This document shows, piece by piece, positions 4,401 through 53,584 of a DNA stretch of 64,000 nucleotides. The notes beneath the pieces are model-generated. The model was not told where the DNA came from. It worked only from the letters and a program-made list of their open reading frames with translations, and searched no databases. The stretch lies in the NCBI GenBank assembly GCA_003344405.1, contig NOWV01000189.1:1-64000 (forward strand). The letters are read 5' to 3'. Within the stretch, counting starts at the first letter, position 1, and every line of letters starts with the position of its first letter. The position numbers and the translations under genes were made by a program. This DNA comes from Trichoplax sp. H2. Taxonomy: Eukaryota.

Positions 4401-7400
4401 CTCGAAATTACATCTTTTAGAGTGGCTGTAAGTTACCTACGAATTCCCAAAGAATACTTAATTAATAATATATACTTGGTTCTTTTGAAATTGACGAAAT
4501 TACCTCGTATTCATCCGTAGTAGATGACTGATTCAAATATTTTTGTATCATTTTATTTTACAGTTCGTTGGAAAAGAATTTATTAAATGATTTAACTTCT
4601 CCCAAAATATTTGAAGGATTGTCGAACTTGGAATATTTGTAAGCTATGCAATCGAATACTACAAATAAAAATTGACAAATGAACAGTGCAGTAGTATTTA
4701 AAATCCATTTAGATATAAATTAATAATAAATATGCTTACTGCACCTACTGCATTTCGTTGACAATTGCATAAAAATTATACATGAAAACAGTATCAATTG
4801 AATGATTGAAGATGAAAATTAAACGTAGCAGGAAATTGATATACGACTGATTATTTGCATAGGTATTTAGAAAGTAATAGATTGGTAAAAATAGAAGATG
4901 GAGTTTTTGCGAGCTTGCCTAGATTAGCTAAACTGTAAGTTTTCGTGGAATACTGTAAACTTACCTACTTTATTCTATCTAATTTCTTGTAAATGATAGT
5001 TGAGAAAACTATACTTTGAAAGCATGACCTTATAATAGTCATTTTTAAGTGACTTGCAGCTATATTTTGTTAAAAGATCTTCTAAGACTTAGTTTTCTTA
5101 CTAATAACTTATACAGGGTGATGTACGAAAATTTATTGAGCTCTTTATCAGCAGGAATGTTTCAAGGATTATCTAGCTTGACAAATTTGTAAGCTAAATA
5201 GAGATATTTAGCTAATGCATAAACTCTTTGACTATATTTTTTATTATAAATAGATTCCATATGCTAATGATAAGTTCTAGATTATTCCATTTTACAATTA
5301 TTTTCTCTAACTTAGTTGAATATTATTCACTATATGATATTTAATGTAATTTAGCCTAAATACGTATGTTATGCGCTATAACTGAGAAATCATACTAAGT
5401 GAGGGTATCTCGTGGTTTAGTGGAGTATTCCATGACAAAGTAAAAATAGGATAGTTAGACAACATATAAATTCCAAGAGGCTTAATTATTACACAACTTA
5501 TAGCGATAAAATAAATAAGAACACTTTCTTCAATACATTAGAGACATAGAAAAAAATAACATAGAAAAAATTGAGGATGGGGCTTTTGCAGACTTAAATC
5601 AATTAGAAACGCTGTAAGTTTTCATAAGACAACATTCTCATTCGATCATCGCTCTGTTGTAATGTAATATTTCTATTTAAATATATGAGATAGTAAATTG
5701 CGTAATTTAAATTGCTTTTGGTTCTTCTGAAAATATCATAGGATTTGAACACTGTTATTTAGTTGTATACTACTTTTACAGGAGCTTAAGTGAAAATTTA
5801 TTGAATACTTTAACTTCTAAAAGAACTTTCGAAGGATTAATAAATTTGGAAAATCTGTAAGTAACGAAAACTACTGATAATTATTTGTGATAATCATTAG
5901 ATTAGACTGTTAAAGGTTGATGCCGAATAAGCTATTGATATGGATGGACAATTTAACTATTAATTATTAGTAAACTTAACGGTTCACATTTTATCAGACT
6001 ACTCGTATGATAAAGTGGATATCATATACGGTATATGTATTGCTATGGAGAGCTAAATTGTAATTTCGAATATTGCTTGCAAAATCGATTATATGAACAG
6101 CATGAATTGTATTTTAGCATTTCCATGCTATAATTACTACTATTTCACATTGCTTTTATTATTTAAATATAGTAATACCATTTTTTGTATCATACTATTA
6201 ATCACTTAATTATTATTTACTGTAATATAAGTCTTGCTGATAACATCTTCAATGAGATATTTTGTGTATTAATAAAAGTATGATACAATTCCGAGGTTAA
6301 ACAGCATAGATGTAGTTATAGTTCTGGAACAATAGCTTGATCGTTTGATTAGATATAAGAAAGAATATAACAAAAAAAATTTTGTGCTTTTAATGCAATG
6401 ACTGGGTTTAATCATTTTTTATTCTATTTGATTGCTTCAGACACCTAAGAAATAATAGAATATCTTTAATTGTAAATGGGGTTTTCGAACCACTTAGCAA
6501 ATTATCAAACTTGTAAGTTTTAATAAATCAAATGCATTGATTTAAAGCTCTATTTAATCGGCTTTTTTGTGAGTTTTATTTCTAATTTTACTACCATAAG
6601 GTATTGTACATTATTACGATATTATAATCATTAACCTAAGCAGTTACAATTTACACTACAATATTGCTGTAGTGATATAAATATCAAATCGTAAATTTAA
6701 ATGCAATATTAGTAACTATAGTTAAAGCTCTTGCCCAGTACGTCCTGTTTAGTATTAGGTAACTAATTGACATCATTAACCACACATAGGATATCATAAT
6801 AAGCTACTAGGCACAGCTATAGAACAGATAATAATAATAATAATATACTAACTATATGATTACGAAAATAATATTTCTAATAATATAATAATACTTATGC
6901 ACAAGACAGATTTCCATAGCTTCATTAATAAAAATAGTTAAACAGGCTAACTACATGCTCAAACGATACCTGCTTCAGTTGCTTTTATACACTACATATA
7001 TTACGAATCAAATAGAATACTGACTAATCCCAACCGGCACCATGTTAGCTAATAGATACGGATAATTGGACAATTTATGTTTTAAGATGTTTCGTAATAT
7101 TCTCAACTATCAAAAATGATTTATCCGTATGAATGGCTATTTAGGAATTTTCATGAAACATTAAAATGTTTTTTTATTAGACTTAATAAAGTAAAAAGGT
7201 CAAAATATACTTATACGCTGATATTTTTTCGTTTATACTCCATAATTTATTAATCTGCGATTATAAAGTATAGATAGTTTGGTTATTTGATGATTAGAAA
7301 TATAAAATCTTCTTTAAATCTAATACATTCTATTTGATATCATTGATTTATTTATAGACAATTATCCAAAAACGAAATTCATAACCTGCGAAATATTAGC

Positions 7401-26860: not shown

Positions 26861-29800
26861 TTATTTTTTAGTTATAATATGATTGATCGTAACAAAGACA
26901 ACACATGCAATAGCCCAAATATTGATCACTGGAATCCATAGCCAGTGCTTAAAAGGCGATGAATAGATATTAACTTCATTTCCTAGTTTATCTCGAGCTT
27001 CTTTGCGTCCGTAATAAACTAACGTAGAAGGAATGACATATTGAACTCCAACGCCAGCATACGAGCCGGTAATACCAGCTAAAAATTCCAAATTCTTAGT
27101 AATAAGAGCCAAAGTTACAGGTGGTATGAGGGCTAGTAATGGAAAGACGATGCGGTCTATCCAAAATGGATAAATTTTATCTTCTTTTAGGAGCAAAGAT
27201 TTTAGATTGTTACGTAATGTGACCCCAATAATTGGAAAATTAGAACTAAGAGTGAAAACTGGAAAGAGCGATAGGAAAAAACTGATAAATTTAACATGAT
27301 AATGAGTAAAATTTAATGTATATAAATCTTCCAGCGAGTGAATTGGAAATGTAAATATGGCAGTGTGAGATAATAGCGCATAGAAGGCTAAAACAGTAAC
27401 GTAATCTCCTAATAGAATATACATGACATGCTTTTTCTCACGAATGGGTGTAATCATCGATGGCAATGAATGTTGGCACATGAATGAATAAATACAGATG
27501 CCAAAAAATGTTGGAATACCAGCAAAATTAGCTACCGGTGGATGACCTCTAGCCTTACCACTACCTAGAAAGATGAATGTTATAGAGAGCATCATAGCAA
27601 AGGCTGAAGATTTGGAAATTGGTATTTATGACGGATATTGTAGAAGGAAGAAACGTAAAAATGCAAAATTAGTCGTTCATCATTACAATATTCATGAATT
27701 CATTGCTATCTACAATGGAATAATTTAATTTTATGTAGTGTAATGTAAAAAAATACACGTCTTATAAAATATAGGCGAATCTCTAATCGCCATAAATACT
27801 ACTTAACTTCAATATTTTGAATTAAACTGTGATAAAAGTGATCATTAATTAAAGAAGTGATATTTAGCTCACCTAGCCACCGTAATATAGATGTTGTGAC
27901 TTGCAAGTATTTTGTCTTTTGAACATTGAAAAAGACAAATGGTCCAAGACAGATGGTAAAAGCGGCCTAATTAAATTTTTAATACTATTATTTACTCTTC
28001 AATATCTTTTTGGGACATTTAACTGATGTACAGTCCTATTTAGTTTAGGAATTATTTCTGTTAGTGTGTTAGAAGGAATGCTTACTACAAAGATTCGATA
28101 AGCACCACCAACTGTAAAATTTCCCCAGCAGGGTAATGAAGTATTTAGTCCGGTTCCGTTTAAATCATTACTAACCAAAAATTAAATAATTAATAACAAT
28201 AGCGGCACTTGGATAGTTAAGTTTTATTTAAATTATTAATTACGGATTGAAATTCTCTTGCACTTACCAAGCAACTTTGGTCAGAGATTTTGCAACGGCG
28301 ACAGCATAAATTGCTAAATCGCCATATAGGTAAATACAAATACACAGATAGAAGAAATTGTTGCCAACTATAAATTTAAGTATGCCATAATAGAGAATAA
28401 TTTAGTAATGAAAATCATATATGTAGTAATTGAAAAAAGTCAAAAGATTCAAGAGGCTTCCTATATTACATCCAACTTGAAGTAAAACACTTATTGGTAA
28501 AAGCCTCATATCTTGCAAAGATGAAATACCTTTATTGTAAAACATTCCCGCCATTTTCCCCTAGTTTACAAAATTTAATAAAGCATGTCGATTTAATGAT
28601 AACCTTAATCTGGCAATAGAAAGAGATAATGCTCGCAATAGGAAAAGGATAAAAAGTGGAATCAATTTGAAATCAATTAGTCACTAAATTTATAGCATAC
28701 GAGTATACTAATCAAATATGGGGCAGTATTAATTATTACTAATAAGTTTTAATTGCAAAAGTCGATTATTAACCTGGTATTGAAACATGATCCAATATCT
28801 ATAAAGGCAGTAAATCACAGAAAGATTTTAACCGATGCAGCTATGAAATTAATTGATGAAAAGCTCAAAAGCATAGTCATTTGCTAAACTTATTTTGCTG
28901 ATAGTTGTTTTGAGAGAAATCTATTAGTAGCTCGTTGTTTCTAATAGAAACGAGTTAGATGAAGATTTGAAATTTTGGCTTGCTAAATTAACTGATAAAT
29001 GTCCAGGATTTATAAAAATATACTAAATTAAAATAGTGTTATCTGCTGGTGCCAATACCAATCATTTTAACGATTTGTACCATACATTAAGTAATAAAAG
29101 CATTACTGAATTTATTCTTTAACACGACATGAGCTCGTTTGATTACAACTTGTATAAGGATTTAACTTACTATTGACGTGGAGATTCATTAAAGAATCTA
29201 TCTGGAACTACTCTATTAGCTATTTTTGACTGAATAACTTTATGTCAAGAATCAGATTGAAGATAGAATTCCTCTTAATTTCTTAATGCCTTAAATTTTT
29301 TTATCTGGCTATTGATTGTTGAATTACAGTTACGGTAATTTCTGTTATCTAATATTTCAATAATAATAAATTGCTATACCATAGATTTTAGCTAAATGCA
29401 ATAGTTTAATAAAATTTACCAATTCTACTCTCTCTTTGATTTCAAATACATTGGATATGTATTCCCTCTTAATTTCTCCTAAAGTCCATATCAAATATAT
29501 ATGGATTAATCATGGCATTTATTAAACTTATAGCAAATGAGAAAGAGGATACTCTATTAAGATCAGCCACTTGTAATGTTTATCGTTAACAGAGCTTTAT
29601 TATTTACATCAATTAGATTATAAAGTCATAAATCTTACCATTAATTTCAATTTCGAGATACTTTCGAGTTTGAAGTACTGGCGTTCTTTCAGTATTGATT
29701 GATTTATCTGTTTCTCCTTCTTGATCGCTATTCGACTATAGATAACAGTAATTAGATGAGATTCTTAAATAATTTAATTGTACACTGCACTATTAAATAT

Positions 29801-32912: not shown

Positions 32913-33926
32913 ATTTGTGTATACGTATAAATTTATCGGCCAGTGGTTTAGATATCAGATAGTCCTTTTCATGTTATTAGCAAGTATTTTTACTCTTTTA
33001 CGGTTCACTTTCTTGAATTAAAAATGATGAATTGTAAATAGGTAGAAAATGAGATTGAAATAAAATATTTAAGCTATCTTTTTATTTCATCTCTGCCTTG
33101 ACAATTTATAAAATATATATTGACATGGCTAGGAGATTTGTTATTGCGTATACATATCGTCAGTAAATAAGGCTACAATGAAAATTCTTTCTCTATCTTT
33201 TATATTCTATTTCTGTCAATGTCACAGATCGGATTTTTTTTATTGATGCTGTTTGGAGATTTAATATCACAGCACTTTGAACTATTGCTATACATAGAAT
33301 ATCGGGACAAATGAAGCATTGTGCCCATTTTGAATCTCTCTCGCTCTCCTGGAATAGCTGGTAAAATTGATTTACTCGTCCGTTATTTTGAGATCCATTC
33401 TTACTATTGATAACTGTAAGATTTGCGTATACGTATAAATTTATCGGCCAGTGGTTTAGATATCAGATAGTCCTTTTCATGTTATTAGCAAGTATTTTTA
33501 CTCTTTTACGGTTCATTTTCTTGAATTAAAAATGATGAATTGTAAATTGGTAGAAAATGAGATTGAAATAAAATATTTAAGCTATCTTTTTATTTCATCT
33601 CTGCCTTGACAATTTATAAAACTTATATTGACATGGCTAGGAGATTTGTTATTGCGTATACATATCGTCAGTAAATAAGGCTACAATGAAAATTCTTTCT
33701 CTATCTTTTATATTCTATCTCTGTCAATGTCACAGATCGGATTTTTTTTATTGATGCGGTTTAAAGATGGTTTGGAGGCGGTTTAAACCATTGCTATACG
33801 TAGAATATCGGGATAAATGAAGCATTGTGCCCATTTTGAATCTCTCTCGCTCTCCTGGAATAGCTGGTAAAATTGATTTACTCGTCCGTTATTTTGAGAT
33901 CCATTCTTACTATTGACAACTGTAAG
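32913..33926. repeat. Tandem duplication, two ~507-bp near-identical copies
   Basis: 32913-33420 and 33421-33926 are nearly identical, with one divergent patch near 33250-33290 versus 33758-33800. Confidence 0.95.
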
Positions 33927-35070: not shown

Positions 35071-38000
35071 AAAATGGAACGGCGTACCAATACTTTGCAC
35101 TGTATAGGCATATGATAATGAATCAGGTAATTTGAACTTTCATTACAATCATATTTACTAAATTTTCTTACTTCGCTACAGTTACAATAAAGAGCAGATA
35201 ATCAATAGTTTTTGTGTCTTAATTCAAATAGTATAACCATCAATTATAATATGAGAACTATTAACAGTCTCTTGAGAGTTAAGAGGCACTATGCCGTGCT
35301 AATTTTCGTGTAAATAACTTATTGGTTAAACCAACAGCATCATAACAAAGCTACGTTCCATTGCCTATAGTCTTATTTCAAGTCATTCAATAAAATTGAC
35401 ATTGAATATGGCAGAGCATGCACCTGCTTACTGATAATGAGCTGATATAAGGTCTGTAGTGAAAATTGATCGATAAACTTGGAAACAATTCTGGAAAAAA
35501 ATTCTGTTTTATCACTAAGCTGTAACAGCGCTCCATCGTCATTAAAAAATTTTACGAATCAGTTTTGTACCGGAAACTAAACTTTCGGGAATCGTTCGTA
35601 GATAACGACGTAGATCTCCAACTGACTTTTAGAGACCTATATGGGTGAAAACGAACTCTTTTCTTCGCACAAAGATGACTCTTTCAAATATTTAATAGAG
35701 AATTCCTTTACTGTTCTAAGCTACAATATGTGTAAAGCCGTCACTCACTAACATCAGCCGGAATTGATCAATTCATTACCATGATCGTTGTTATATATCC
35801 TAGTCACCTCAGCACAATGCGACTATTAATATTTTAGTTGTGGCCGTTTGTAGGCCTCGGCATAGCGACGAGCTACTAAAGCTATAATAACTTATAGCGG
35901 CAGCTCGTAGACAAAGTTGATTCAAAATCGATTACGTTAGAGCCAAATTGGACATTATCCGGTGTTAATGAACAGACATAAATGATTACGCGTTCCAATT
36001 AGCAATTATGTTTTATTGCCAGCTCAGAAAAACAAACAAATAACAAGCTACATGAGGTAATCGAGTCACCAAATTATTACAAAGCTTAGCACTGTAACAG
36101 GGTATAAGGTTGTCAGAATTATGTTGAATGGATAAATTTATGTAAACGGCTGAAAAATTCTTATAAAACGATATATTGAGAATTTATGTGGTATGTAATT
36201 GCAACAATGTTTGTACATATTGTTGTGTGAAATCATCGAAAAATAAAAAATTACAGGGTAGCTTCAGGTAGAAAGTATTGATAGATTTTATGAGATGTAC
36301 GTTTACTTTCCTTCCCTCTTTATCTATTCAATAGACTTAGGTAAACGTCCAAAGGTTTTAGTCTTGTAATACTACTTGTAAGTCGGAAAAATAATAAAAA
36401 ATGCTCAGCCGGTTGTTCCTTGACCTTTTTGAGCATTTTAAAATAAGGGAAGACACGGTAGTATTCTTCTATTGTAAAAATTTTTTTGTAAAGATCAATT
36501 TCAGATTTACCGTAAAATTTTCTATTGCATCTGTTACGAGTTAGGAATAATCCTGACTTGTAACAAAGGTTGATTATGTATTTCGAATATACACGACTGA
36601 AAATTGAAATATCGGTTAAGGTTTCTTAAACCAGTTTAATCGTACAAGTCACCTCGTCTTTTAGAAATTATCCAAACTAATGCTCTAAAAGGTTTTCATG
36701 TATGTGTAGAATTAAATACAGTTTAGCACAACTAAATTCAAAGTGTCAGCATTACATTGATCACTTGCTAATAGTACGCTAGATTAATATACACGTACAT
36801 AAGTGTATATTTTGCTATCCCATGAAGATGTTTCATTTAAACTTACAAACTGTGCTTGCAGTCATAAAATCATTCAAGGTGATAGTTATAATCTAGTTAA
36901 AGTAGTTGAGAAATGCAATTACTATTTTAGTTTATCTAATTACAGGTTGCTAAAGTATCATTTGTTTAAGGCCAAAGTTACAGTTAAAGAAAGCGTGAAC
37001 ATTACTGACATAGAAGCGTATGCCCATATATCAAACGTAATATGAAAATAATATACATGTCACGAACATCATATAACAGATCTTTCCTCTACTTGTGCAA
37101 ACTTATATTTTATGCTAACTAGTCACGATACTGCTGTTATAGCAGGAACTATTTCTCATAAATGGTGATGTTGATAAACTAATTGTATTTCTCTTATATG
37201 TAGGATTGTGTTAATAATAACATCTTATTAGCCGGATACAGAACAATTACTACTTAGTAACAATACATTGCACATCTTCAGCAGTCAATGTCGCACTTTA
37301 TAATGCTTTACTTCAGCCTGGTCAATCACCTAGTAAATAAATTCTTAATTAATTACTACTAAAAGCCTTTTAAAAATGAAATATTGAATTAAAGATTTCT
37401 ATTATGAGAATTCTATACTTCAGCGTAACAGTTAATTATCTAGGGAATAAATTTATGAAGCAATAAACACTGCAGGTCTTCAAAAAGTGAAATAATGAAT
37501 TAGCATTTTCCCCATTCCATAAGATAATATGCTACACATAAAACTGTACTATACAATAATGTTAGTATAGATAGTGTTGCGTTACATCAGGTAACTGTCA
37601 GAACATAGCAGTAAGATTATTCGTATACCGAAGTAAAGTCTACAAAAACACTTGATAAATGATCTTACACACTCATCACCTAGATCAATTTTTAAATTAA
37701 TTTACAGAAATTACCGTATCGTAACATCCTTATTTAAGATATTTCGTTAATTATTCTTTCTATATAATTTCTTTGAACTAGCCTTCAAGATTACTAATAT
37801 ATGTTTACTACATTGTTATTTTTTGAATACGATTCAAATTCGTCTGAATCTATCATCAATTTACAAAGAGTAGGATAACGAAAGAAATAACAGGGAATCT
37901 GCTATTTAAAAATAAATATATACATAAGAACTTAATACAATGGTTTGACAGATTTATGGACGTCCTCGTTCCGCAGCTTTGAATAGTATCAGCTAAAATT

Positions 38001-38315
38001 AAACAAAAACATACAAATGCAAATATTTTAAATCTTCAGAGAGTTGAACTTTAATTAAGTTAATGATTTGAGTAATCCATTTATTCATACATTGATTTTG
38101 AAATATCTAATTATATACTATCTTGAATAGCTTCAGGCATGGCGAATTTTTGATGCGTTGCAATCTAATTCCATTGCAAACTGCATGATTACGAATCTTT
38201 AATACGGTTTACTAAGAGAAAGTTTACAAAGTAAAAGAAAATTTCTTGCGTTGCAATTGTGATTGTGACGTGGTCAAATCCCTTTGAGAATAACATAACC
38301 ATGAAAACTAAAACG

Positions 38316-38323
38316 TATAAATA
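38316..38323 (+). promoter_or_regulatory. TATA box of the microexon peptide gene
   Basis: TATAAATA about 120 nt upstream of ATG 38437, with no intervening ATG. Confidence 0.55.
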
Positions 38324-38436
38324 GGCTTTTACAAGTTAATTCTTGCCATTACTAACTCACCGCGATTGAATAATTTCTTGTTAGGAGTATATCAATTTTG
38401 ATTTAGATTCATTTAGAAAGCAACATATCTTGGAAA

Positions 38437-41400
38437 ATGTCGAAAGTTATTCCTTCCGTTTTGCTCATCGCCTGCGTCCTACTGGCTTTCTTTCATTCTA
38501 TTGAAATGTAATTAAGGCTAAGGCTAGAATTATCAAGTTAAATTTTGTTTTGCAAGTGGATTAACATAGTCGACAAATTTCAACTGCTTCTCCGATTTTT
38601 TAATTTCATCTCACGTTTATATTTTCTGTTCTACACTAGGAATCCTCGCAGGTAAAATATGAAATATCATGTAATAAAAGAACTTAACAGAAAATTCTAA
38701 GTCATAAACATCTTTCTTCTTTGCTTCAATTCATTTGATTTTTGCTGTCATCTAACTGTCGGAACATGTATCTGTAGCCTTAATGAAAACGAGATGTGAG
38801 TTGTAGTTGTAAGGGTACTATAACTATCTTTTTCAGTGCAGTAACAAATAAACATTTACATTTGTACAGCGTTATTAATGTCCTTTTCCTCTTTTCTGTA
38901 ATATCTTTCATGACACTCTTACTACTGTCACTACTTGGCTTTTCACTGCAGAAGGGAACTATAGTAAGTTAAGCCAGTTTGATCAACTATAGATAGTGTG
39001 GTGCCTACATCGACTATAATGCACGTAGCTATGTAATCCAAATTGATATAAATGTTGAAAAATGACCACTCCCTCTGTTTCTGTCTGTATATTCCATTTA
39101 TTCTCTTGGGACTCTACACGAAATAACACAATTATTATAGCGAAGAGTAAGATTAAAATTATGTTTACTAGTATTAATCTCATATTCCGGCTAAATTTCA
39201 ACTAATAATACAAATAATTTCTAATATTCTATGCATGGACCTGTTCGTGAAATTTAGATTTTCGGACAAAAGAAGAAGACCCACCAAGTACGATTTGAAT
39301 AAATTCTGAGATATAAAACTTAATGTATAAATAATTATAGTAAATGATTATCTAATATTTTTACAGGACATGGTAAGTAGCTCTTCAGGATTCCTTTGAT
39401 TAATACATTGGTGAAAAAGGTCTTAACTCATTCTACTTGTCTTTACCAGTTACGATGGCCCATATTGCCTCGTGAAGTACGGAAAATCAGAGTTCTGCTT
39501 ATAATACTTTGCTATATCGATATCAAATTTTTCTTACTATAAAAATAAGTAGCAAGAGTATATTGCAAGAAAATTGCGTACGAGACAATATTTGAAGATG
39601 TTTAACGATTGAAATTTTCATGAAAGCATCATAGCTTGATAATAAAATTAATTCATGCCTGAATACAGTGTTTTGTCATTACAGTACAAAACTATTATCA
39701 ATTCAATTTGTTTTAGCATATATAGCATATGAAGATAACAACGTGTATGTTCATTTTTTTTTTATTTCTACTATAATTATCTACTGACTTATTACTGCAA
39801 TGATCTTGATAAATCCTTATTAAGTTGAAATTTATTTTTAGTAGTACCTGTAACGTAGAGCAAAAATAACCTCTAATTTTAGCAATGTGTACATAAATTT
39901 AAGTTTCCGATAGAGTAATAATTATATATTTTCTTTTCTTTTATATGCTATTGCTACAATTGGGTATTAAATATAATCCGAAAACAAATACATTCTCAAA
40001 TTGACAAACAGATCCAGTAGAAATTGGTAAGTATGATTGCTGTGTCTCATACAGTATACCTTGCTTCTAGTTACAATAATCTAATGAATTATCACTAAAG
40101 TAATCACATTTTAAATTATCTATCTACCGAGAGAAATTAATCGATAAATTTCATTACATATGTAGTATTATCTTTGCAAGATATCTGACTAAAAATGATT
40201 GAATTTAATGTCTGATTGAAAGTTTAATTTTAATTGCCCTTAAATATATCTTATGTTAAATGGTAAACATGATTCTAATTAAATGTTTATAAATTGAAAC
40301 CAAAATTATAAGCTACTGTTAACACTAATAATGAAACTTATATTTTACTCCTATTCCATATCTTAATAAAAACGAATAATACCAAAGCTGGTAAGATAAA
40401 TTTTACATACTTACATCCTGCTATTATTCAAAATATTTGATTCAATTTATTATAGTCATTTATGGTAAAATTTTAAGACTCGCCATATTATACTATAAAT
40501 ATTTAATGCTTTACAATTGTCTTATATGAAATTATGGAATGTTATCCTGTCGATACCAATTATATTTTATTTATTCCACCGTAGCTTCGGGTAAGTATAT
40601 TAATGATTATGTTTCACGTGTAATTTCATTCTTTAAGCTATAAAAACAACATTATTTATTAAGAATTAAACTGCAGTCGAAGAGTTTGAAATATGCAAGT
40701 ATGCATATAATGCTTTGGGTTAGCGCACCTAAACTGAGTAGTAGCTACCATAGATAGTATCAAATGCAGTGCGATAACAATATTTATTGGAGTTGTTATG
40801 TATCTATGGTCGGCCACACAAAATGACGCAAACAGTAGAATGGTTTCAATGCAGTTTATTGAAAAGTATAACCTACTCAAGAACGGATGAATAGTAGAAC
40901 TCACTTAATAAAGAATAAATCAGTTTTACAGAATCAGTAGCTCATGAATGACTACAGGATAATAAAAATATGTTATGTAGAATATTGCTATGAATTACAG
41001 TTAGAAAATCAATATGTTCATCACGTACAATAACAACATGACTTAGCAATATTGCTAGTATGGAAAGTATATGAACTCAGAATTGTAATGTACTTTAATC
41101 CAAATATGAGTTATACGCTATAGAGTATAACTATTTTTATGATTACATACAGGCATAACAGTTAGAATAATGTCGTTGTCATTTTAAAGAGAAACCAAAT
41201 AGTTAATTATTAAACCGAACAAAAGTTGAAATGTTACTATAATACTAATCAATATTTGCTTTTAATCATTTATATTATTTTATACTTGATTGATGAACAA
41301 ACGGTGGTAATTCCCATAGAACTTGGTAAGTGCTATACTGCTGATAAAAATAAATTAATGATGCATAGTTTAGATAAAAATACTATTTTAGTTTTGTACA

Positions 41401-44400
41401 GTAATATCTTTTTAAAACTAAATACAGTTGCTTCAGCAACTTTGCTGAAGTGCCTTTTTTAAGAATTCAGTTATTACTTATTTTTACATAGAATGGCTGG
41501 CGATAACAGTTACAGTAAATTTGAGAATAATTGCAATTCGATAGCAAGATGCTCTATTGTTTCTGAAATATACTCTAGTATAGCTCTTTCATTATATCTT
41601 ATTTGAGAATAGATTAATTTAGTCAATCTTATTTGGGGATTATTAAGAAAAAGTGGATAGTGTTTAGAATCATATTTGTTATTAACACAGCGTATTGCAT
41701 AAATTATTAGATATTTCAATTAATTACTTACAAAATATACTTGTATAGCCACTAGAAGACTATTATATTACTCATTCTGAAATCATTAAGATATATAAAT
41801 GAATATTAATGCGATATGATTACCTCTAACTATTAAAAATTTAAAAACAGTCAAAACTATTTTACTACCTTATAGCTCTGTAACAGTTGCAATATCATTT
41901 TTTCTATTTCTTTTCTGCTATGAATGCGAACTACTATTCTCAACTACAAACACAAAATTTGCATTTAACAGCTAGTAAGTTATTATCTTCTTATATAATT
42001 GATTTCATTTATAATTTTTAACTCGTATATTACAATGTTATGATAATAATCTTTCTGAAAGCTAGTATATGAGTATTGGAACGTATGACTACGATACTGT
42101 CGTTTGTGTTCTTAAAACAAGAGATTCACAGTAATTGTTATCAGACACTGTATCTCTAACATCAATTGAGGTTTTTCAATTACAAATTATATAGCAGTCC
42201 ATGAATTTTAAAATAAAAATTAAATATCTATTGATACCTAATCGGGTAATAATTTCGTTTTTTTTATGATCACATTGTTCTTACGATTCGCCATGATATC
42301 TTGGTACGAAATATTTATCTATAGTTCGTAAGTATGATGCTAATAAGTAAAATAAATTGATAAGAATTGTACGCAAATATCAGAAAACCCTTTCAGAATT
42401 TAATATTAATCCATTTTATCAAATATACAATATCACAGTAGTTAAATAACTAATGCATAATATATAGGAATAATAATTATAGTACGGTCAATCTTTGACC
42501 ATAATAAAATTCTTTTAGAACGAGTTACCGCGACAATTTCATGTGTTTATACACGTATTATTTTAAACTAACATGCGTTAAATGTCACAATTATAATTAG
42601 TACTTTCAGTTTGCCTACAGTATCATCAAAATATTAGACGAAAATCATTATTTAGCTTTGAATTTTTATTGCATTTATAAACGGTAATGTGCAAAATTAA
42701 AACTTATCCATGGCATTATTTTAAAAGTGCTATGTATAATTTATTTTGTTCCGTTTCATATGTTAACTGAAGTTATTATTTTAGATGCTCTTCCGCTATT
42801 AGTAAAATTCATGACTCGTCTAACACATTCTCTTTAATTTATTTGTGTTATAAATATCATACCTATCTATTCCCTGGCAATGGTCGCATTAGGATGTAAG
42901 TAAAGCAATTAGATATAACTGTAAATGAGAAAATTTATTGTAACATGGGTCATTACAGCTTCTAGTAAAAATTATAGTAATATCAATGCAGGATAAACTA
43001 ATAACACTAATTGTCACTTGCAAAACATCGCAAAACATCGCAAAACGGAAATTGCAACTGTTGAGTTCGTCGTAACCAACATGCAAAATGCGAAGCTCTT
43101 AACTTATTCCTAGTGTTTGGAGCTAACAAAGTCTCTTTTAATTGACGTAGTCGTACGATTTATAGTAACGCTAATGCAGTTAATTGAAATTCGGTGCAAC
43201 ATACTATATCATGATCCTTCTAGTTCAAGATCATAAGGAGTAGCTTACTCTTTCATCTTTAAAAATTTTGTCTGTGATATGTCTGGTATTGTACACGGTA
43301 CTATAACAGAGTATATATGTCTATTCGCGGAGAGTGATAATGTCTAATATTGCATCCATGCCCTATTTGCAAAGTACATTATTATTTGCAAAACTAAGAA
43401 AGCGATACGATTTCAATGAGATACATTCCTTGTTTCATACATATTTTATCATTCAAGTAGTTACAGATATTACCGTTCGGTATCCTGTAGAAATTCAATC
43501 AAACCATATCGCATAAATTTTCGGTCATACTACGAACAACAACACTACTTTCTCTTACTATCTATGTCAAAACACTAAAGTTGTAATATGTTTAATTTTA
43601 ACAGTACGGCACAGCTTAAGAAATTTATGATTATAGTGCACTTATTAATACAGCATTTGAGTTTCAGCAGAACCAAGTAGTAACATCAGCAGAACCAAGT
43701 AGTAATTTAAATGACTTCAATTAACTAAGAATTTCTGTTAAAATCTTGCACATTATTGGTATGTTTATTGATTTGAATTAGAAGATTTTAATTGGATACG
43801 TTAAAATTAATTGTGTAAATAAGGTTGATCTATACTAGTTAATTCAGCAAGAAGAGCAAATACAATGCAGTTATTGATTGTGAGTTCTTTAGAAGGATTC
43901 TTCTTGAGTATTTTAGTAATAGCTATCTAATCCAGTAGTTTCAGTTTAGGTTAGTAATTTAAGTAAAGTGACAAGATAGCGGCTCTATATTATTTAGTAA
44001 TATATTGTCAGGTATTCCCATACAAATCGATTATGTATGTATTACTATAAGATGTTCCATAATTTATGAATCAAAAGGAATGTAAAGTCTACAAGTAAAT
44101 TAAGAATGTATATTTGCTTGCTGTTGTAACGAAAATATGCATATCATTTAATATTTTTTCAATTTAACTAACTTAACGTTGTTGGTATTCAAATTTTATC
44201 TTAAACTTGAGGGTTTAACACCAATTCTATCATTAAAAGTTGAATGTATGTAATTTCAAACTAAATATTTAATAGATGATGTCTAATAGGTAACTATTTT
44301 TAATTCCTTTTACTATTGCTCCGCTACCAACGCTGACACCATCTAATAATGCAGTACATCAGCGTAAGATATAATTATAATCAATTTACTTAATGCTATT

Positions 44401-47400
44401 TCATATATTTTTTATGCTTTACTTAATATAACTCTTCATTTTGTTGTATGGTAAGTATTTTAAGCTTATCTTTTTTATTAAGAATTATATACGATCGCAT
44501 TAAGATTGCATTAGATAACTCAATCGTAGGAATGAAAATTATTGGTTTGAATTTTTTATAAATGTTTCAATAGTCTTAAATTAGGACTGATGTAATCTTT
44601 ATTAGCACAAATAAATGTAAACCATTTCCGGCTAACAATTTTACATTAATTTCTAATTTGTATGGGCGATTAATAGCCTATCTAATCTTATTACTTTTAG
44701 CGTAAAATTGAGCCTTTAGGTATAGTAAACTTAGTTAGATGATCACAAAACCAGTAACGTGACCTTTTTGCTTATTATTGATTATTATAATCACGGAAGG
44801 TGATGCAAAAGTCTTTTGGAAAATTATAGGACTGAGATACCATAGTTTATGAATATAATTGCAGATTTCATGCTCTATGTATTCTTTATAGTTAATGCAT
44901 AGAAATTTGAAATAATTTATACTAGATATTAGATCGTATCATGCAATTGTCTTTGCATAGTTATGGTTAACTTACATTAGGTACATTGCTTACGGTATAC
45001 GAATACAGTATTATTGTATATATGAACGTATATACTGTTCCTTAACCTCAGTTGAAACTTGCAATAAAAATAAGTACCTTTAGAATAAGAATCACATAAT
45101 ATTTAGGGCAGAGCACTTCAGTTTTAAAATAACAGACCTTAATAACATAATAGATGGAAATGTTTGTGTTAATTCGTATCAAGAAACTGCTTACAATAAA
45201 TTAATCAGAATCATCAGCTACATATTACTAGGCTAATTTGATGAACTGGCAGTTTATAATATATTGTAGAGTAAGATAAAAGATCTCTTCTCTACCTTAC
45301 ACAAAAAATATTATGCATTCATTGATTAAAGTTGTATCAGTTATCTTCAACAAATATTAAAAAAAATGTTTTTTTTAGACATTTGAAATAATTAAGATTT
45401 ATTTTTATTTCTTTTTTATATCGACATCTCGTCTTTGCTTTCCTTTGGCAATTTACATTGAATTTACAGAAGCAAGTAAGTTGCCTATTTAGTATAGATA
45501 AATAATAAAGTGTTTAAGCTAGCTGTTCTTATGATCGCGGTATTTCAGCAAGTATCTATGATCATATACTCGCTAAATTTACCTGAAGGAGAGCGAATAG
45601 CAGATTACTGATATAGATAATCATCTACACGCTAATGTGAAGTACAGCATCTATGACGTATTTGTTCAATTTATACTTTAGTCTCTACGAGAAATTTTAG
45701 AGCAATTGACTAAGTGTTTTAGCTTGATAGCGATGTTATATCGATAATGTCTTGGACTGTTTGGGAATACTGAACAATCATATATTGCTAGAGCATTGAA
45801 ATTAATAAAGAATAGGACTAGGCTAGGATTAAATTCTGGAATAACAAAACAAATAATTTTTTAATTTTACTTCACTTTTATAATTAATTTTTATGTACGA
45901 TTCCGAAATTGGGCAATAAAGCGCGTAAGTACAATATTTTATTTACTTTATTTATTTAAATTCTAATAGTACCTTATTTACTTATAATTGGATATTTGAT
46001 ATATCTTATTTCTGATATCAGTTACTATTGATAAAGATTTCGAACTTTATTTTAAATTGCCACGATATTAATGCTTTTATCAACTCTAGCGAAATTAATT
46101 GTTTGCATAAAGATTACATTAAACAAATTTGACGACGAGAAAATATGAATTTAGTTTCTACTGCCACACATTATACAATTTTATCGCTAAGCTACTAGTG
46201 CTGTAGTTCGTATGCTTAAGCTACGATAATACTTCACAAATTAGAGCGATATGCGAATAAATTTAATTTTATGCCTACTATTCAATCTTATGTATGCCAT
46301 ATATAATTGTCCTTCATGCAAAATTGATGATTTTCTAAAAACGAATTGGTCTATCATAAAGTGGGTAAGTATTACTTCATAGATTGTTTACCTTTCCTGT
46401 CATAAGCGAGATTTTCGTGCAGAATAAATTTTATTTCAGGACTCTGTACCCTACATGTTTAATAATGTATTCATCCATGATCACGTTCAGTATTAAATAG
46501 AATCGTAAGCAAGTTGAATTCGTGATAAAATAAGTTGTCATCACACTTTAATCATCTCTTAATAATAGAAGATATTTTACGAACTGTTTTGTAAATTGGG
46601 TGAAGGTTTCAGAAACTTAGCACATTTGCGACACTGAACAATGCCAGACTAAACTACAACGGTCACAGATTATTTCATTTTAGTCATTATAAAAACAGCA
46701 ATGTAATGAAACTGCGATAATAGTACAAAGTGCTATACTATAACTTTTAGTATATCCGTAAAGTAAAAATTTCGCAAGTGGGTCTGTTTACCTAATTATT
46801 AGATAATACGGTTTAGTACTAAGTCCGTTTACGTAATCTGATCATTAATAGTGATTTAGGCTACTCGCATTCATTTTCAATAATTAATTATATACAATTA
46901 TTAATATCTTCCAATCATATTCTATGCATTTGAGACAGCATAAATTAAATTTATTACTATGCATAACCTGCGCTATATTCTACATGGTCAAGAACGACTA
47001 TCTATTAAAGTAACATACCTTTGTCAAAATTCAGATATTTTACGAAACTTAAAATAGTAAGATACTGATGTGATTATGTATAACTATCAACTAATAGAAT
47101 TGTCTTACTTTTTAATATTGCACTTCTATGTCATAAACTGTATGACCATCAACGTCTCAGAGTGTAAGTTAAATACTATCAAGCTGAAGTACATTTTACA
47201 ACTAATTATTTATTGTTTGCTTTATATTATTCAGTATTAATATTCTATAATACGAAATTAATATAGCGTTCTTTTACCATTTGAACGTTCTGTACTTCAT
47301 TGCCTATTTCAAATATTTTGCAACCATTCGTATACTACAATTAATCTAGTTTCTCGTAGATATTTTTTGTAGAGTATCATTTTTATCTTTATTTTATTAA

Positions 47401-47609
47401 TAATAACTTTCGTATTTTTAATTATGGAATATTTATACTATGCCCACTCGGAATGTTAGATGGTAAGAATTGATAGAATAAAGGATTTAAAGTTTAGTAC
47501 TTATCAAAAGTACTATATTTCAATTACATTTACGATCCCTCTTTCTCAATACTAAAAGAAATAGCTACATTTCTGATGCCTTTCTCTAATGTCTTTCAGT
47601 ATCAATTAA
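38437..47609 (+). CDS. Microexon-encoded secreted cystine-knot (knottin/toxin-like) peptide precursor, 85 aa, 22 exons
   Basis: Exons: 38437-38507 (71), 38640-38651 (12), 38778-38795 (18), 38952-38963 (12), 39141-39146 (6), 39258-39287 (30), 39367-39372 (6), 39450-39476 (27), 40012-40026 (15), 40388-40390 (3), 40585-40590 (6), 41320-41325 (6), 41972-41974 (3), 42325-42327 (3), 42893-42895 (3), 44355-44363 (9), 45470-45475 (6), 45922-45924 (3), 46362-46364 (3), 47161-47163 (3), 47460-47462 (3), 47600-47609. All introns are GT-AG and phase 2. Spliced product: MSKVIPSVLLIACVLLAFFHSIEMNPRSLNENEIRELYEEFSDKRRRPTKTCYDGPYCLVKSSRNCCFGTCYSITSASNAGVCIN*. Confidence 0.82.
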
Positions 47610-48769
47610 ATACTGCAGCATTAACAGAATTCAGCTGGTCATGCCTGCGATAGTATAGAATTAGAAGATCAGGAATTGGTATGGTAATCGTTACAAGAAG
47701 AAGAGAAGACTTAATTTAATCTGAAATACATCATGTATTGCAGTTGATTTTCTTGTAACTTTTAACAAAATTTAGTGGTAGATTCTACCTAGCATAATTA
47801 TAATCTAAGGATAATTTACAACATCTTATAGTGTAGGTTACATTGCGCACGTATTGCTCATAACCAGTAAAACCAATGCTCGTTCTATTTTCGTGTACTG
47901 CAAGTACACGTACCTATTACTTGGACAACTAACGAGGTTTTGGTTTACTGCTCGTAAATTTGCTTCAATATTGCTGGATTCTTGACATTAATATCCTAAA
48001 TTCCTAATCCATGACCAAGATATAATAAAAAGGCCTTTGAAATAAAATTTTTCTACTTATGAGCTACTATAGCTTAATTTTTGCAGCATGAATTGTTACA
48101 AAGGGACATGGCATGGCTTTGGATCAGTGTCTTATAATTCATAGTAGTAAAACGCTAACAATGTAGTTGCCATAGACATTACCGAAAATACAATTTATTG
48201 CCTTGATGGCGAGCAGTTGAATACCTATCTGTGCACAGTTCTCGGAGTATAAATAAATTAAAAGGAATCCTGTCACCTACAGAATCTATAGACGGGTCTG
48301 TATCATTGTGTATTCCAGCGACTACGACAAGAAATATTTCTAGTTGATCCTTAAATCGAAGTATAAAACTAAATTAAATCAATTGCAAGAGCGCTAACTA
48401 CGAGGTAATTTACAATTTAAAGCAGGAATCGGTACAGTCTCATAGACTATTCGAGTAGTTGCACATTTTTACAGTGAATGATGTCAGGAACTTCTTTTAT
48501 GGTGTAAAATTTCCTTTATTTTTACCAATTTTTTTTATGGAATAATCCCTGTTTAAAGCCTACCGGGAAAACTCCCGGCGGCGGATTGTAACCAATTATT
48601 AGAATGTTTGCAGAATCTACAGGATGCTTTCCTAATACTTGAAAATCCTAACTATCGAGGTTCTTCTAGACAGTCCTAACATAGCTGGACGTACATTACT
48701 GTCCCATGGACTCCGTACAGTCATGCTTATGCTGTATTCTAGATCACAGCCACTCATGGTAGAGTTAAG

Positions 48770-49382
48770 ACGACAGAGCATGATAAAATCAGAGCCTTCT
48801 CAAATCGATCCAAAAACATATCAATTGAGGATTCATCATTCCATTTGAACATTTTAATCGAAGGTTTAGGACCAGCCAGTCTCGAATCGTTGAGCTGGAG
48901 TTGTTGCAGCATTCGACTCTTCCACCGTGATGTATTGTGAAGTATTTCTTAAATATTAAACAAATATTAAAGAAAATGTACTGTACAGTAAGGCTAACTA
49001 GAGTATCCTGTTTATGACGCTAAATTGTTGTGTATTACTGTCTAGAGTTAAATACTAACAACTGTATTAAAAGTTCGTACTACTCTCACTTAGCATAGAG
49101 ACAAGAAATTGAACACTTAGTTGAAGTTATTGTAAAACTAACTACCAACTCTTACTCTCGTTATTGTATCGGAAACGGCGGCTTATATACGTGCACCGTT
49201 CACATTTCTAACGCAATGTAATTGCAAGTTTATGCAACAGGAAATTCATTATTAAACGTACAATCGAATAAATATAGCGTAGCGTAGTATATAGTAGTAC
49301 TGATTTCTATACTGTATGCTTGACTAATGACTTTGACTTTATGTCTTAAGTTTACGGTATGTCTAACGGTGTAGGTTTAACA
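48770..49382 (-). mobile_element. 5' remnant of an LTR retrotransposon (LTR, degenerate tRNA-Ser PBS, gag-like fragment)
   Basis: LTR-like 49026-49382 (TGTT..AACA, minus-strand TATA). 49005-49022 ATCCTGTTTATGACGCTA resembles the tRNA-Ser(CGA) 3' end ATCCTGTTCGTGACGCCA. Downstream minus-strand peptide PKPSIKMFKWNDESSIDMFLDRFEKAL resembles a Ty3/Gypsy Gag N-terminal motif. Confidence 0.55.
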
Positions 49383-50137
49383 GGACTATATAATATTCAA
49401 TAATAGTCATTCAGTCCATTTAAGATTACTACATGTGTTTGCGTCCATTCAATATTACCTACATTAAGTATATTACTGTGATAATTCATTCATTATAGTG
49501 TCATCAATGATCTAATTTTGTCGAGTAATGAATGCATCCTATGTTAACACCTAACCACGAATGAACTATTATTCGATGTCATGGAAAGTGTGCAAGTGAT
49601 TCTTGCAATATTCAGCATGTAGACTTAGCAATAAATTTATTATTGTTTTGCACCAACAAAGTTGGCGAGGCTATATAAAAGCCTCTAAATTCTTAATTGG
49701 GGGAAGTGGATAAGTTAGATGATAATTATAATAGATGGTTATCAGGTATTTGTAGTAGATTGGAAGTTGTCAGTTCAATGGGTTATTTTAATAAAGCTTT
49801 AATTCTTAGTGTGAGTGTTCATTCTCTTATCTAAGGCTCCAATCTAAGTTGGGTAGATTAAAGAGAGCTTAGACTTAGATAGTTACGACTAGTTTCCAGG
49901 AAAGAATCCCGTTCATTTTTGCGTTGCATTCTCGGCTGTTTTAATGGCTGACTTGCCGTTGAACTACGCCTTCAATTTCTTGTTTCGATAGTAACAGACG
50001 CTTATGAGACTACTGTCCTGTACACAGTACCGTACTGTATATCAATGTAAAGTACGATACTACACCCTAGTGTACCACACCATGAATCAGAACGTCGGAT
50101 CCTCATCGCGGTAACTCTATCGTTTAATCGTCAAAAG

Positions 50138-53584
<3,447 letters not shown>

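What the first reader, a model, noticed from the sequence alone, without database searches (positions are those of the whole stretch)
41972..47462. C5-C6 loop encoded at about one residue per exon: possible splice-generated peptide library
Seen: the loop YSITSASNAGV comes from nine symmetric exons (3,3,3,9,6,3,3,3,3 nt) spread over 5.5 kb. All introns are phase 2, so skipping keeps the frame and shortens the loop, sometimes recoding the junction codon. Alternative in-frame acceptors exist at 45470/45473 (NAGNAG) and, earlier in the gene, 40012/40021. Known: schistosome micro-exon genes (MEGs) diversify secreted proteins by skipping symmetric microexons. Inference: a convergent system that varies knottin loop length and sequence.
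Basis: partly seen in the sequence, partly recalled or inferred. Interest (0 to 1): 0.85.

Follow-up and report, generated by a model that had tools for sequence, protein, structure and literature searches.

The report
Placozoan knottin gene built from microexons
A Trichoplax gene for a small secreted six-cysteine peptide is cut into 22 exons, eight of them only three bases long, and RNA assemblies show one main message whose length fits all of them being included, so the strange gene structure is real but nothing yet shows it is used to make a peptide library.

Summary
Window 38348-48046 (+) is one gene of Trichoplax adhaerens. It has 22 exons and 21 phase-2 introns, and encodes an 85-residue prepropeptide: signal peptide, acidic/basic pro-region with KRRR, and a 38-residue C-x5-C-x7-CC-x3-C-x11-C peptide. 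The C5-C6 loop is encoded by exons of 3,3,3,9,6,3,3,3,3 nt at 41972-47462, as reported.

RNA contigs from three runs (two studies) join exon 1 to the last exon. Exons 2-8 are seen letter by letter. The remaining 66 nt equal the summed length of exons 9-21.

Three sequence signatures back the microexons:
- AG-N3-GTAAG occurs 9 times in 7.5 kb against 0.32 expected.
- 16 of 17 exons of 15 nt or less have GTAAG donors.
- 18 of 21 acceptors follow an AG-free zone of 61 nt or more, against 14 of 431 other AGs.

The splice-library reading is unproven. Only the full-inclusion form is seen, contigs cannot show minor isoforms, and the strong splice signals suggest constitutive splicing. Only 172 of 512 skipping patterns keep six cysteines.

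It resembles schistosome MEGs and aphid bicycle genes in architecture but is a member of neither. My searches found no placozoan precedent.

The parts
38316..38321 (+). TATAAA box about 30 nt upstream of the 5'-most RNA contig end
   Evidence: motif position; X10 contig starts at 38348
38348..38507 (+). Exon 1: 5'UTR plus CDS 38437-38507 (71 nt). Encodes a 23-residue hydrophobic signal peptide. Donor GTAATT.
   Evidence: contigs of X8 and X10 aligned up to 38508; Kyte-Doolittle mean 2.52 over residues 4-20
38640..38651 (+). Exon 2, 12 nt, donor GTAAAA
   Evidence: its letters appear in the RNA contigs of X8, X10 and X5 (table 5c)
38778..38795 (+). Exon 3, 18 nt, donor GTGAGT
   Evidence: aligned piece 38776-38795 in three RNA runs (table 5)
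38952..38963 (+). Exon 4, 12 nt
   Evidence: letters in RNA contigs (table 5c)
39141..39146 (+). Exon 5, 6 nt
   Evidence: letters in RNA contigs, directly after those of exon 4 (table 5c)
39258..39287 (+). Exon 6, 30 nt, donor GTACGA. Holds the KRRR processing site.
   Evidence: aligned piece 39258-39288 in three RNA runs
39367..39372 (+). Exon 7, 6 nt. Ends in the TG of the C1 codon.
   Evidence: letters in RNA contigs (table 5c)
39450..39476 (+). Exon 8, 27 nt, donor GTACGG. Encodes the C1-C2 loop and C2.
   Evidence: aligned piece 39449-39476 in three RNA runs
40012..40026 (+). Exon 9, 15 nt, using the first AG. Unused in-frame AGs would start the exon at 40018 or 40021.
   Evidence: The 66-nt length of the RNA segment needs the 15-nt form. 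AG-free zone 94 nt.
40388..40390 (+). Exon 10, 3 nt, lying between the split codons of C3 and C4
   Evidence: AG-free zone 73 nt; length fit
40585..40590 (+). Exon 11, 6 nt
   Evidence: AG-free zone 105 nt; length fit
41320..41325 (+). Exon 12, 6 nt. Ends in the TG of the C5 codon.
   Evidence: AG-free zone 92 nt
41972..41974 (+). Exon 13, 3 nt. First exon of the C5-C6 loop.
   Evidence: AG-free zone 83 nt; length fit
42325..42327 (+). Exon 14, 3 nt. Skipping it alone makes a stop codon.
   Evidence: AG-free zone 125 nt
42893..42895 (+). Exon 15, 3 nt
   Evidence: AG-free zone 88 nt
44355..44363 (+). Exon 16, 9 nt
   Evidence: AG-free zone 63 nt
45470..45475 (+). Exon 17, 6 nt, using the first AG of a CAGAAG tandem acceptor. 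The second AG would give a 3-nt exon starting at 45473.
   Evidence: AG-free zone 71 nt; the length fit favours the 6-nt form
45922..45924 (+). Exon 18, 3 nt
   Evidence: AG-free zone 93 nt
46362..46364 (+). Exon 19, 3 nt
   Evidence: AG-free zone 113 nt
47161..47163 (+). Exon 20, 3 nt
   Evidence: AG-free zone 61 nt
47460..47462 (+). Exon 21, 3 nt. Ends in the TG of the C6 codon; skipping it alone removes C6.
   Evidence: AG-free zone 83 nt
47600..48046 (+). Exon 22: completes C6, adds two residues, stop at 47607-47609, then about 430 nt of 3'UTR. AATAAA at 48024 and 48041.
   Evidence: RNA contigs aligned 47599-48035/36/46 in X10, X8 and X5, with depth 34-114 in this bin against about 0 in neighbouring intron bins

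Best explanation
This is a real, expressed gene of the placozoan Trichoplax adhaerens. It encodes a secreted prepropeptide of 85 residues: a signal peptide (exon 1), a charged pro-region ending in KRRR, and a 38-residue mature peptide with the inhibitor-cystine-knot type framework C-x5-C-x7-CC-x3-C-x11-C.

The coding sequence is split by 21 phase-2 introns into 22 exons. Exons 9-21 are 3-15 nt long, and eight of them are 3 nt. Five of the six mature Cys codons are split TG|Y across an intron, so each inter-cysteine loop has its own exon or exons.

The main, probably constitutive, product includes every microexon.

Inferred mechanism of recognition: each microexon is defined by a consensus U1 site (GTAAGT or GTAAGA) placed 3-15 nt after the first AG that follows a 61-125 nt AG-free, non-pyrimidine-rich zone. 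That implies a distant branch point, scanning to the first AG, and step-wise (recursive-like) use of an acceptor and of the donor right behind it.

Shown: the exon structure, expression, the length of the dominant isoform, and the statistical signatures. Inferred: the knottin fold, secretion and processing, and the order and mechanism of splicing. The biological role is unknown; signalling, defence or antimicrobial activity are possible.
For: Organism: the neighbouring exon 26864-27625(-) is 100% identical to TRIADDRAFT_21298 of T. adhaerens.

RNA:
- Contigs of X8 and X10 (study P4, on record as RNA) and X5 (study P3) carry the joints 38508>38776, 38795>39258, 39288>39449 and 39476>47599.
- The inserted letters equal exons 2, 4+5 and 7.
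- In X8 and X10, 175 nt lie between 38508 and 47599, which leaves exactly 66 nt for exons 9-21. Their predicted sum is 66.
- X1 has even depth of 75-108 and long unjoined contigs over the introns, so it behaves as DNA, and it shows none of these joints.

Reading frame: 258 nt, 85 codons, all introns phase 2, Cys gaps 5, 7, 0, 3, 11.

Statistics:
- 9 AG-N3-GTAAG sites against 0.32 expected; 0 of 2000 simulations reached 8.
- 16 of 17 exons of 15 nt or less have GTAAG donors, against 0 of 4 larger exons; Fisher p=8e-4.
- 18 of 21 used acceptors have 61 nt or more of AG-free sequence upstream, against 14 of 431 other AGs in the gene; Mann-Whitney p=2e-13.
- The used AG is the first one after that zone at E9 and at E17.
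- Acceptors of E9-E21 have 6-15 pyrimidines in 20; 12 of the 13 have 12 or fewer. E2, E8 and E22 have 15-16. The intron background is 0.51.

Other features: hydrophobic N-terminus, a single multibasic site at residue 44, TATAAA at 38316 and AATAAA at 48024.
Against: - The letters of the 66-nt stretch (exons 9-21) were not displayed ('between: not known'). The nine exons of the finding therefore rest on length, reading frame and signals.
- The between-length could be computed only for X8 and X10, which belong to one study. For X5 only the joints are shown.
- Contigs cannot show minor isoforms, so 'constitutive' is not proven.
- The knottin fold rests on cysteine spacing alone. The spliced protein could not be handed to any family, structure or homology tool.
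- No relative was found. The only search possible, with the exon-1 peptide, gave 0 hits.
- No branch-point or enhancer motif stood out. The best 5-mer, ATTCC, occurs in 5 of 13 upstream regions (p=1.3e-4 before correction for about 1000 words).
Confidence: 0.78

Rival explanations
1. Splice-generated peptide library. Regulated or stochastic skipping of the symmetric microexons E13-E21, and use of the tandem acceptors, produces many mature peptides with C5-C6 loops of different length and sequence, as in schistosome MEGs.
For: - All introns are phase 2 and all internal exons are multiples of 3.
- 410 of 512 subsets of E13-E21 stay open. 172 keep all six cysteines, with loops of 1-11 residues, and all 172 are distinct.
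- In-frame alternative AGs exist at 45473 and at 40018/40021.
- MEG proteins are reported to vary by alternative splicing of central exons (10.1101/2023.06.21.545858, passages).
Against: - No other joint of this gene was reported in the three RNA runs. In X8 and X10 the contig length fits full inclusion; for X5 the length could not be checked.
- The microexons carry the strongest donors of the gene and long AG-free zones. Both are features expected of efficiently included exons.
- 102 of 512 subsets give a premature stop. Skipping E14 alone gives a stop, and skipping E21 alone loses C6.
- In run X1 the unused AG at 40016-17 is changed (40017 G>A), so that alternative acceptor is not kept.
- Contigs cannot exclude minor isoforms.
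Confidence: 0.15
2. Diversification over evolutionary time rather than by splicing. The one-loop-per-exon-set layout, with Cys codons formed at the junctions, lets exon gain, loss or duplication change loop length among paralogues and species, as proposed for MEG and bicycle families. Each individual gene is spliced constitutively. This is compatible with the best explanation.
For: - 5 of 6 mature Cys codons are split TG|Y at phase-2 introns, so loops are exon-delimited modules.
- The architecture parallels rapidly evolving secreted families. Bicycle genes average about 17 exons and almost all internal exons are phase 2 (PMC9168663, passages).
Against: - No paralogue lies in the window; there is only one microexon cluster on either strand.
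- The introns share no repeats that would show recent exon duplication. The call reported 3 direct-repeat families and 2 inverted pairs, all weak two-copy matches of 27-44 nt at 70-83%.
- The rest of the genome and other placozoan genomes could not be searched.
Confidence: 0.3
3. Chance pattern or artefact. The short AG...GTAAG matches are accidental, the RNA contig is a chimera, and no such peptide is made.
For: The letters of exons 9-21 were not seen in RNA. No homologue was found.
Against: - 0 of 2000 simulations reach the observed count.
- AG-free zones: p=2e-13.
- The same joints occur in three runs of two studies and are absent from the DNA-like run X1.
- The parameter-free length prediction of 66 nt matches exactly.
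- The frame restores the sixth Cys and stops two codons later.
Confidence: 0.02

Closest known systems
Schistosome micro-exon genes (MEGs)
   Same: Both encode secreted proteins, with the signal peptide in the first exon and then a long run of symmetric microexons in multiples of 3. Introns are short at the gene ends and long in the middle. MEG exons are reported as 3-81 bp, in 10-20 exons per gene (10.1101/2023.06.21.545858, abstract and passages). This gene has exons of 3-30 nt, 22 exons, introns 1-7 of 77-177 nt and middle introns up to 1459 nt.
   Different: The host is a free-living placozoan, not a blood fluke. The product has a recognisable six-cysteine framework, whereas I recall MEG proteins as mostly without known folds. 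The exons are far smaller: 8 of 20 internal exons are 3 nt, against a reported MEG majority of 15 bp. Alternative splicing is not shown here. Homology was not tested.
Aphid, phylloxerid and coccoid bicycle genes
   Same: Both encode secreted proteins from many microexons separated by long introns, and almost all internal exons are in phase 2 (PMC9168663, passages; 10.1101/2020.10.28.359562, passages). Here 21 of 21 introns are phase 2.
   Different: There is no CYC motif. The product is much smaller (85 residues). The phylum is different. The exon-length distribution of bicycle genes is in supplementary figures that I could not see, so I cannot say whether runs of 3-nt exons occur there.
Inhibitor cystine knot (knottin) peptides with the C-C-CC-C-C framework: cone-snail framework VI/VII, spider ICK toxins, sponge knottins (names recalled)
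   Same: Six cysteines with a CC doublet, short loops, and a signal + propeptide + mature layout with a multibasic cleavage site.
   Different: As I recall, the genes of known ICK peptides have few or no introns. This one has 21. Fold, disulfide pattern and sequence relationship were not testable here.
Recursive splice sites (ratchet points, AG|GTAAGT) of long Drosophila and vertebrate introns (recalled)
   Same: An acceptor AG is juxtaposed to a consensus GTAAGT donor, which implies step-wise use of the two sites.
   Different: Here 3-15 coding nt stay in the mRNA. The sites also lack the strong pyrimidine tract that I recall for ratchet points.
Exons with distant branch points marked by long AG-exclusion zones (described for human exons; recalled)
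   Same: A long AG-free stretch lies upstream of the acceptor: median 83 nt here against a background gap of 11 nt.
   Different: In this gene it applies to nearly every intron and is combined with 3-nt exons. The branch points were not mapped.

Membership tests
Knottin / inhibitor cystine knot peptides | Six cysteines in the order C-C-CC-C-C with short loops | tested here: met
   The mature part is 38 residues, with Cys gaps of 5, 7, 0, 3 and 11
Knottin / inhibitor cystine knot peptides | Disulfides I-IV, II-V and III-VI forming the knot | not testable with these tools
   The spliced protein is a joined sequence, so it could not be given to the fold or structure-search tools
Knottin / inhibitor cystine knot peptides | Sequence or profile match to a curated knottin or toxin family | not tested
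   No exon gives a contiguous translation long enough. Pfam and PDB searches need the joined protein.
Knottin / inhibitor cystine knot peptides | Secretory precursor: signal peptide, propeptide, basic cleavage site | tested here: met
   Hydrophobic N-terminus (KD mean 2.52 over residues 4-20); 12 of 26 charged residues in the pro-region; the only multibasic site is at residue 44. No dedicated signal-peptide predictor was run.
Schistosome MEGs | Most of the CDS lies in symmetric microexons between a signal-peptide exon and a last exon | tested here: met
   20 internal exons of 3-30 nt, all multiples of 3
Schistosome MEGs | Protein variation by skipping of central microexons | tested here: inconclusive
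   No joint other than the exon 1 to exon 22 chain was reported in 3 RNA runs, and in X8 and X10 the length fits full inclusion. Contigs cannot show minor forms.
Schistosome MEGs | Family restricted to Schistosomatidae, with sequence relationship to a MEG family | tested here: not met
   The host genome is Trichoplax adhaerens. Sequence relationship was not tested.
Bicycle genes | Many microexons with almost all internal exons in phase 2 | tested here: met
   21 of 21 introns are phase 2. The defining feature is taken from PMC9168663.
Bicycle genes | A pair of CYC motifs | tested here: not met
   There is no CYC in the 85-residue product
Recursive splice sites | A zero-length exon (AG directly followed by GTAAGT) with a strong pyrimidine tract | tested here: not met
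   3-15 nt remain between AG and GT. Pyrimidine content is at background for 12 of the 13 microexons E9-E21; E11 has 15 of 20.

The most novel reading that the evidence does not exclude
Placozoa carry their own, independently evolved class of micro-exon secreted-peptide genes. In it, each loop of a cystine-knot peptide is assembled from exons as small as one codon, with the Cys codons created at the splice junctions. Loop length and sequence are then varied by exon skipping in particular cells or by exon turnover between paralogues and species. That would make this the third known origin of such genes (after schistosomes and sap-sucking insects), the first in a free-living, nerveless animal, and the longest natural run of 3-nt nuclear exons, recognised by an unusual 'AG-free zone plus consensus donor' rule.
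Probability: 0.3. Interest if true: 0.85.

Novelty: new variant of a known kind. Interest (0 to 1): 0.66.

Why it matters
- Splicing. Eight 3-nt exons and thirteen consecutive exons of 15 nt or less in one abundantly assembled transcript are an extreme test of how a spliceosome defines exons. The acceptor AG lies inside the footprint of U1 on the donor just behind it. The acceptors lack a pyrimidine tract and sit behind 61-125 nt AG-free zones. That gives a concrete rule which minigenes can test.
- Gene-family evolution. Micro-exon secreted-protein genes have so far been tied to parasites (MEGs, bicycle genes) and explained by host-parasite arms races. Finding the same architecture in a free-living placozoan questions that link.
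- Annotation. Gene finders and short-read aligners cannot place 3-nt exons, so genes like this are probably missing from placozoan annotations and cell atlases. A genome-wide scan with the signature found here could reveal a hidden peptide repertoire in an animal whose behaviour is run by secreted peptides.

Tried and rejected
- Whole-genome search: no genome is held for this window, so paralogues outside the window could not be sought.
A 30-aa read-through (7 UTR-derived residues plus the signal peptide) against 1.84 billion representatives gave 0 hits. That is weak evidence, because a signal peptide alone has little power.
- The spliced protein is a joined sequence, so it was not given to the Pfam, PDB, fold, atlas or cluster tools. 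The knottin call therefore rests on cysteine spacing.
- My first guess of an aphid bicycle gene or a schistosome MEG was rejected once the neighbours identified Trichoplax. An atlas search of the neighbour gave no useful taxon.
- My first exon chain used a 40018 acceptor and missed exons 3, 6 and 8, whose donors are not GTAAG. The RNA joints corrected it.
- Intron repeats or introner-like elements: 3 direct-repeat families and 2 inverted pairs were reported, all weak two-copy matches of 27-44 nt at 70-83%.
- Rfam families in the window: none.
- Motif enrichment near the microexons: nothing survives correction; the best is ATTCC in 5 of 13.
- YTRAY branch-point candidates are scattered and not informative.
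- RNA runs show no cover over most intron bins between 44013 and 47519. That is expected for spliced RNA but proves nothing.
- Literature searches:
  - Placozoa + microexon gave 5 papers and Trichoplax + micro-exon gave 1. By title and abstract start, the only paper on placozoan microexons is the mitochondrial cox1 exon study, and none describes nuclear micro-exon genes.
  - Trichoplax + short/small exon terms: none of the 15 listed is relevant.
  - Placozoa + cystine knot: 11 papers, 10 listed, none relevant by title and abstract start.
  - Trichoplax + conotoxin: 7 papers, none on a placozoan knottin by title and abstract start.
  - Five-term knottin search: none of the 20 listed out of 420 mentions Trichoplax.
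  - At least 3 of microexon / micro-exon / knottin / cystine knot: 0 papers. This would miss a paper that uses only one term of each pair.
  - Six phrasings of 'three-base exon' (23 papers, 20 listed): by title and abstract start, single 3-nt exons in animals, none with a run of them.
- Subscription journals and supplementary files were not searchable.

Full report
**What is there**

The window is AT-rich (27-36% GC in 2-kb steps). The region 38.3-48.0 kb on the + strand holds a chain of tiny segments, each preceded by AG and followed by GTAAG.

The nine segments named in the finding are at the stated coordinates: 41972-74, 42325-27, 42893-95, 44355-63, 45470-75, 45922-24, 46362-64, 47161-63 and 47460-62. 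Their lengths are 3, 3, 3, 9, 6, 3, 3, 3 and 3 nt. Read in phase 2 they give the stated loop of 11 residues.

**Organism**

No whole genome is held for the window.

- A neighbouring exon (26864-27625, minus strand) is 100% identical over 97% of its length to the TMEM104-like protein TRIADDRAFT_21298 of Trichoplax adhaerens.
- The 7TM exon of the large LRR-GPCR gene in the first 25 kb is at best 72% identical to relaxin-receptor/GRL101-like proteins of Trichoplax sp. H2.

The gene is therefore placozoan. It is not an aphid bicycle gene or a schistosome MEG, which had been my first guesses.

**RNA evidence**

I laid the contigs of four public runs on 37500-52500.

- Three runs (X8 and X10 of study P4, on record as RNA; X5 of study P3) each hold one contig, at depth 46, 41 and 135.
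- That contig runs from 38348/38394 to 38508, then through pieces at 38776-38795, 39258-39288 and 39449-39476, and then jumps to 47599-48035/36/46.
- The letters between the pieces equal exon 2, exons 4+5 and exon 7. Two 6-nt exons and two 12-nt exons are therefore seen letter by letter.
- The last jump carries more than 40 letters, which the tool did not print. From the record coordinates of X10 (1-161 and 337-773) and X8 (1-438 and 614-728), 175 nt lie between 38508 and 47599.
- Subtracting exons 2-8 leaves 66 nt. This equals the sum of exons 9-21 when the first AG is taken at every site (66).
- X1 has even depth (75-108) and long contigs across the introns, and shows none of these joints. 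It behaves as genomic DNA.

The RNA corrected my first chain by adding exons 3, 6 and 8, whose donors are GTGAGT, GTACGA and GTACGG.

**Gene model**

- TATAAA lies at 38316 and the 5'-most contig end at 38348.
- The ATG is at 38437, the stop at 47607-09, and AATAAA at 48024.
- There are 22 exons, and 21 introns that are all in phase 2.
- The product has 85 residues: a hydrophobic signal peptide (exon 1), a pro-region with 12 of 26 charged residues and the only multibasic site (KRRR, residue 44), and a 38-residue mature part.
- The mature part has the framework C-x5-C-x7-CC-x3-C-x11-C.
- Five of its six Cys codons are formed at a splice junction as TG|Y. Each inter-cysteine loop therefore has its own exon or exons.
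- Introns 1-7 are 77-177 nt long. Introns 8-21 are 137-1459 nt long.

**More than chance**

- AG-N3-GTAAG occurs 9 times in 40000-47500 against 0.32 expected. None of 2000 first-order Markov simulations reached 8.
- The window has no second cluster on either strand.
- Of the 17 GTAAG sites between exon 8 and exon 22, 13 are the model's donors. The other four have no AG at an in-frame first-AG distance.
- 16 of 17 exons of 15 nt or less have a GTAAG donor, against 0 of 4 longer exons (Fisher p=8e-4).
- Most telling are the AG-free zones. 18 of 21 used acceptors are preceded by 61 nt or more without any AG (median 83 nt). Only 14 of 431 other AGs inside the gene are (Mann-Whitney p=2e-13).
- The microexon acceptors have no pyrimidine tract: 6-15 pyrimidines in 20, and 12 of the 13 have 12 or fewer, against an intron background of 0.51. 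Exons 2, 8 and 22 have 15-16.

**How it probably works**

Shown: the exon structure, and the length of the dominant message.

Inferred: each microexon is recognised through a consensus U1 site placed just behind the first AG that follows a long AG-free zone.

- This suggests a distant branch point and scanning to the first AG.
- The acceptor AG lies within the reach of U1 on the next donor, which suggests step-wise, recursive-like use of the two sites.
- The choice of the first AG at exon 9 (40012, not 40018 or 40021) and at exon 17 (45470, not 45473) fits this rule and the 66-nt length.

No enriched motif or clear branch-point word was found. The introns share no repeats, and no Rfam family lies in the window.

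**The library hypothesis**

Skipping any subset of exons 13-21 keeps the frame, but it is not neutral:

- 410 of 512 subsets are stop-free.
- 172 of 512 keep six cysteines, with loops of 1-11 residues.
- Skipping exon 14 alone makes a stop.
- Skipping exon 21 alone removes C6.

No joint of this gene other than the chain above was reported in the three RNA runs, and in X8 and X10 the length fits full inclusion. In X1 the unused AG at 40016-17 is mutated. The microexons also carry the strongest splice signals of the gene.

Contigs drop rare variants, and a variant wholly inside the microexon chain could not have been laid on the genome. Minor isoforms therefore remain possible. I put the library reading at about 0.15, and a constitutive micro-exon gene at about 0.78.

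**Comparison with what is known**

- Schistosome MEGs: secreted, 10-20 symmetric exons of 3-81 bp (majority 15 bp), introns of 0.1-5 kb that are shorter at the ends, and variation by alternative splicing (10.1101/2023.06.21.545858, abstract and passages).
- Bicycle genes of aphids and relatives: secreted, about 17 exons on average, 5-25 microexons, almost all internal exons in phase 2 (PMC9168663 and 10.1101/2020.10.28.359562, passages).
- The placozoan gene works like these in architecture but fails membership. It comes from another phylum, has no CYC motif, and has a six-cysteine ICK-type framework.
- Its exons are smaller than what those passages describe. The bicycle exon-length figures are in supplements that I could not see.
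- The knottin assignment rests on cysteine spacing alone. The joined protein could not be handed to family, homology or fold tools.
- The exon-1 peptide alone found nothing.

**Novelty**

In the held library I found no report of nuclear micro-exon genes or knottin peptides in placozoans. One search required 3 of 4 terms and is a weak negative. Reports of 3-nt exons that turned up concern single exons in animal genes (listing only).

I rate the finding a new variant of a known kind (micro-exon secreted-protein genes), with an unusually extreme and well-marked splicing anatomy. Interest is 0.66.

Noticed in passing
window 1-24742 (+): A large LRR-containing GPCR gene (relaxin-receptor/GRL101-like). 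It has many LRR exons ending in GTAAG and a single 7TM exon at about 23756-24742. Among proteins of 575-2000 aa, the best hits are Trichoplax sp. H2 proteins at 70-72% identity and one T. adhaerens protein at only 47%. This copy may therefore be unannotated or mis-modelled in T. adhaerens.
   Followed up: partly
window 50137-50815 (+): A tandem array of a 124-nt unit, about 5-6 copies at 91-94% matches. Copies at 50187, 50503 and 50627 hold an exon-like segment followed by GTAAGT; at least two others read AATAAGT there. RNA contigs of X5 and X8 join the first copy's donor (50214) to 51474 and on into the downstream N-acetyltransferase-like gene. The copies look like duplicated alternative first exons. 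The DNA-like run X1 has a contig that skips 440 nt (50258>50699), which suggests a copy-number difference.
   Followed up: partly
window 49023-50024 and 51528-52500: In the DNA-like run X1 the summed word depth is 576-977 and 3396-4968, against about 90 elsewhere. There are also many loose ends and variant contigs. High-copy repeats or mobile elements seem to be embedded here.
   Followed up: no
window 47636 (3'UTR of the knottin gene): All three RNA runs read C where the window and X1 read T. This could be a strain difference or RNA editing. It cannot be told without DNA of the same animals.
   Followed up: no
window 40017 and 39290: X1 differs from the window at 40017 (G>A), which removes the unused alternative acceptor AG. 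It also differs at 39290 (A>G), position +3 of the exon 6 donor. None of the listed X1 differences falls in an exon of the gene, but 51 rows were not shown.
   Followed up: partly
window 33393-33415 and 33899-33921 (+): Two near-identical 23-nt segments lie about 500 nt apart, each preceded by the same 22 nt and followed by GTAAG. This looks like a local duplication of an exon-like unit in the unexamined gene between 30 and 36 kb.
   Followed up: no
window 38229/40573 and 50076/52459: Single low-depth RNA contigs (X10 at depth 6.8, X8 at depth 6.1) join opposite strands at these places. They are probably assembly chimeras at short inverted matches.
   Followed up: no
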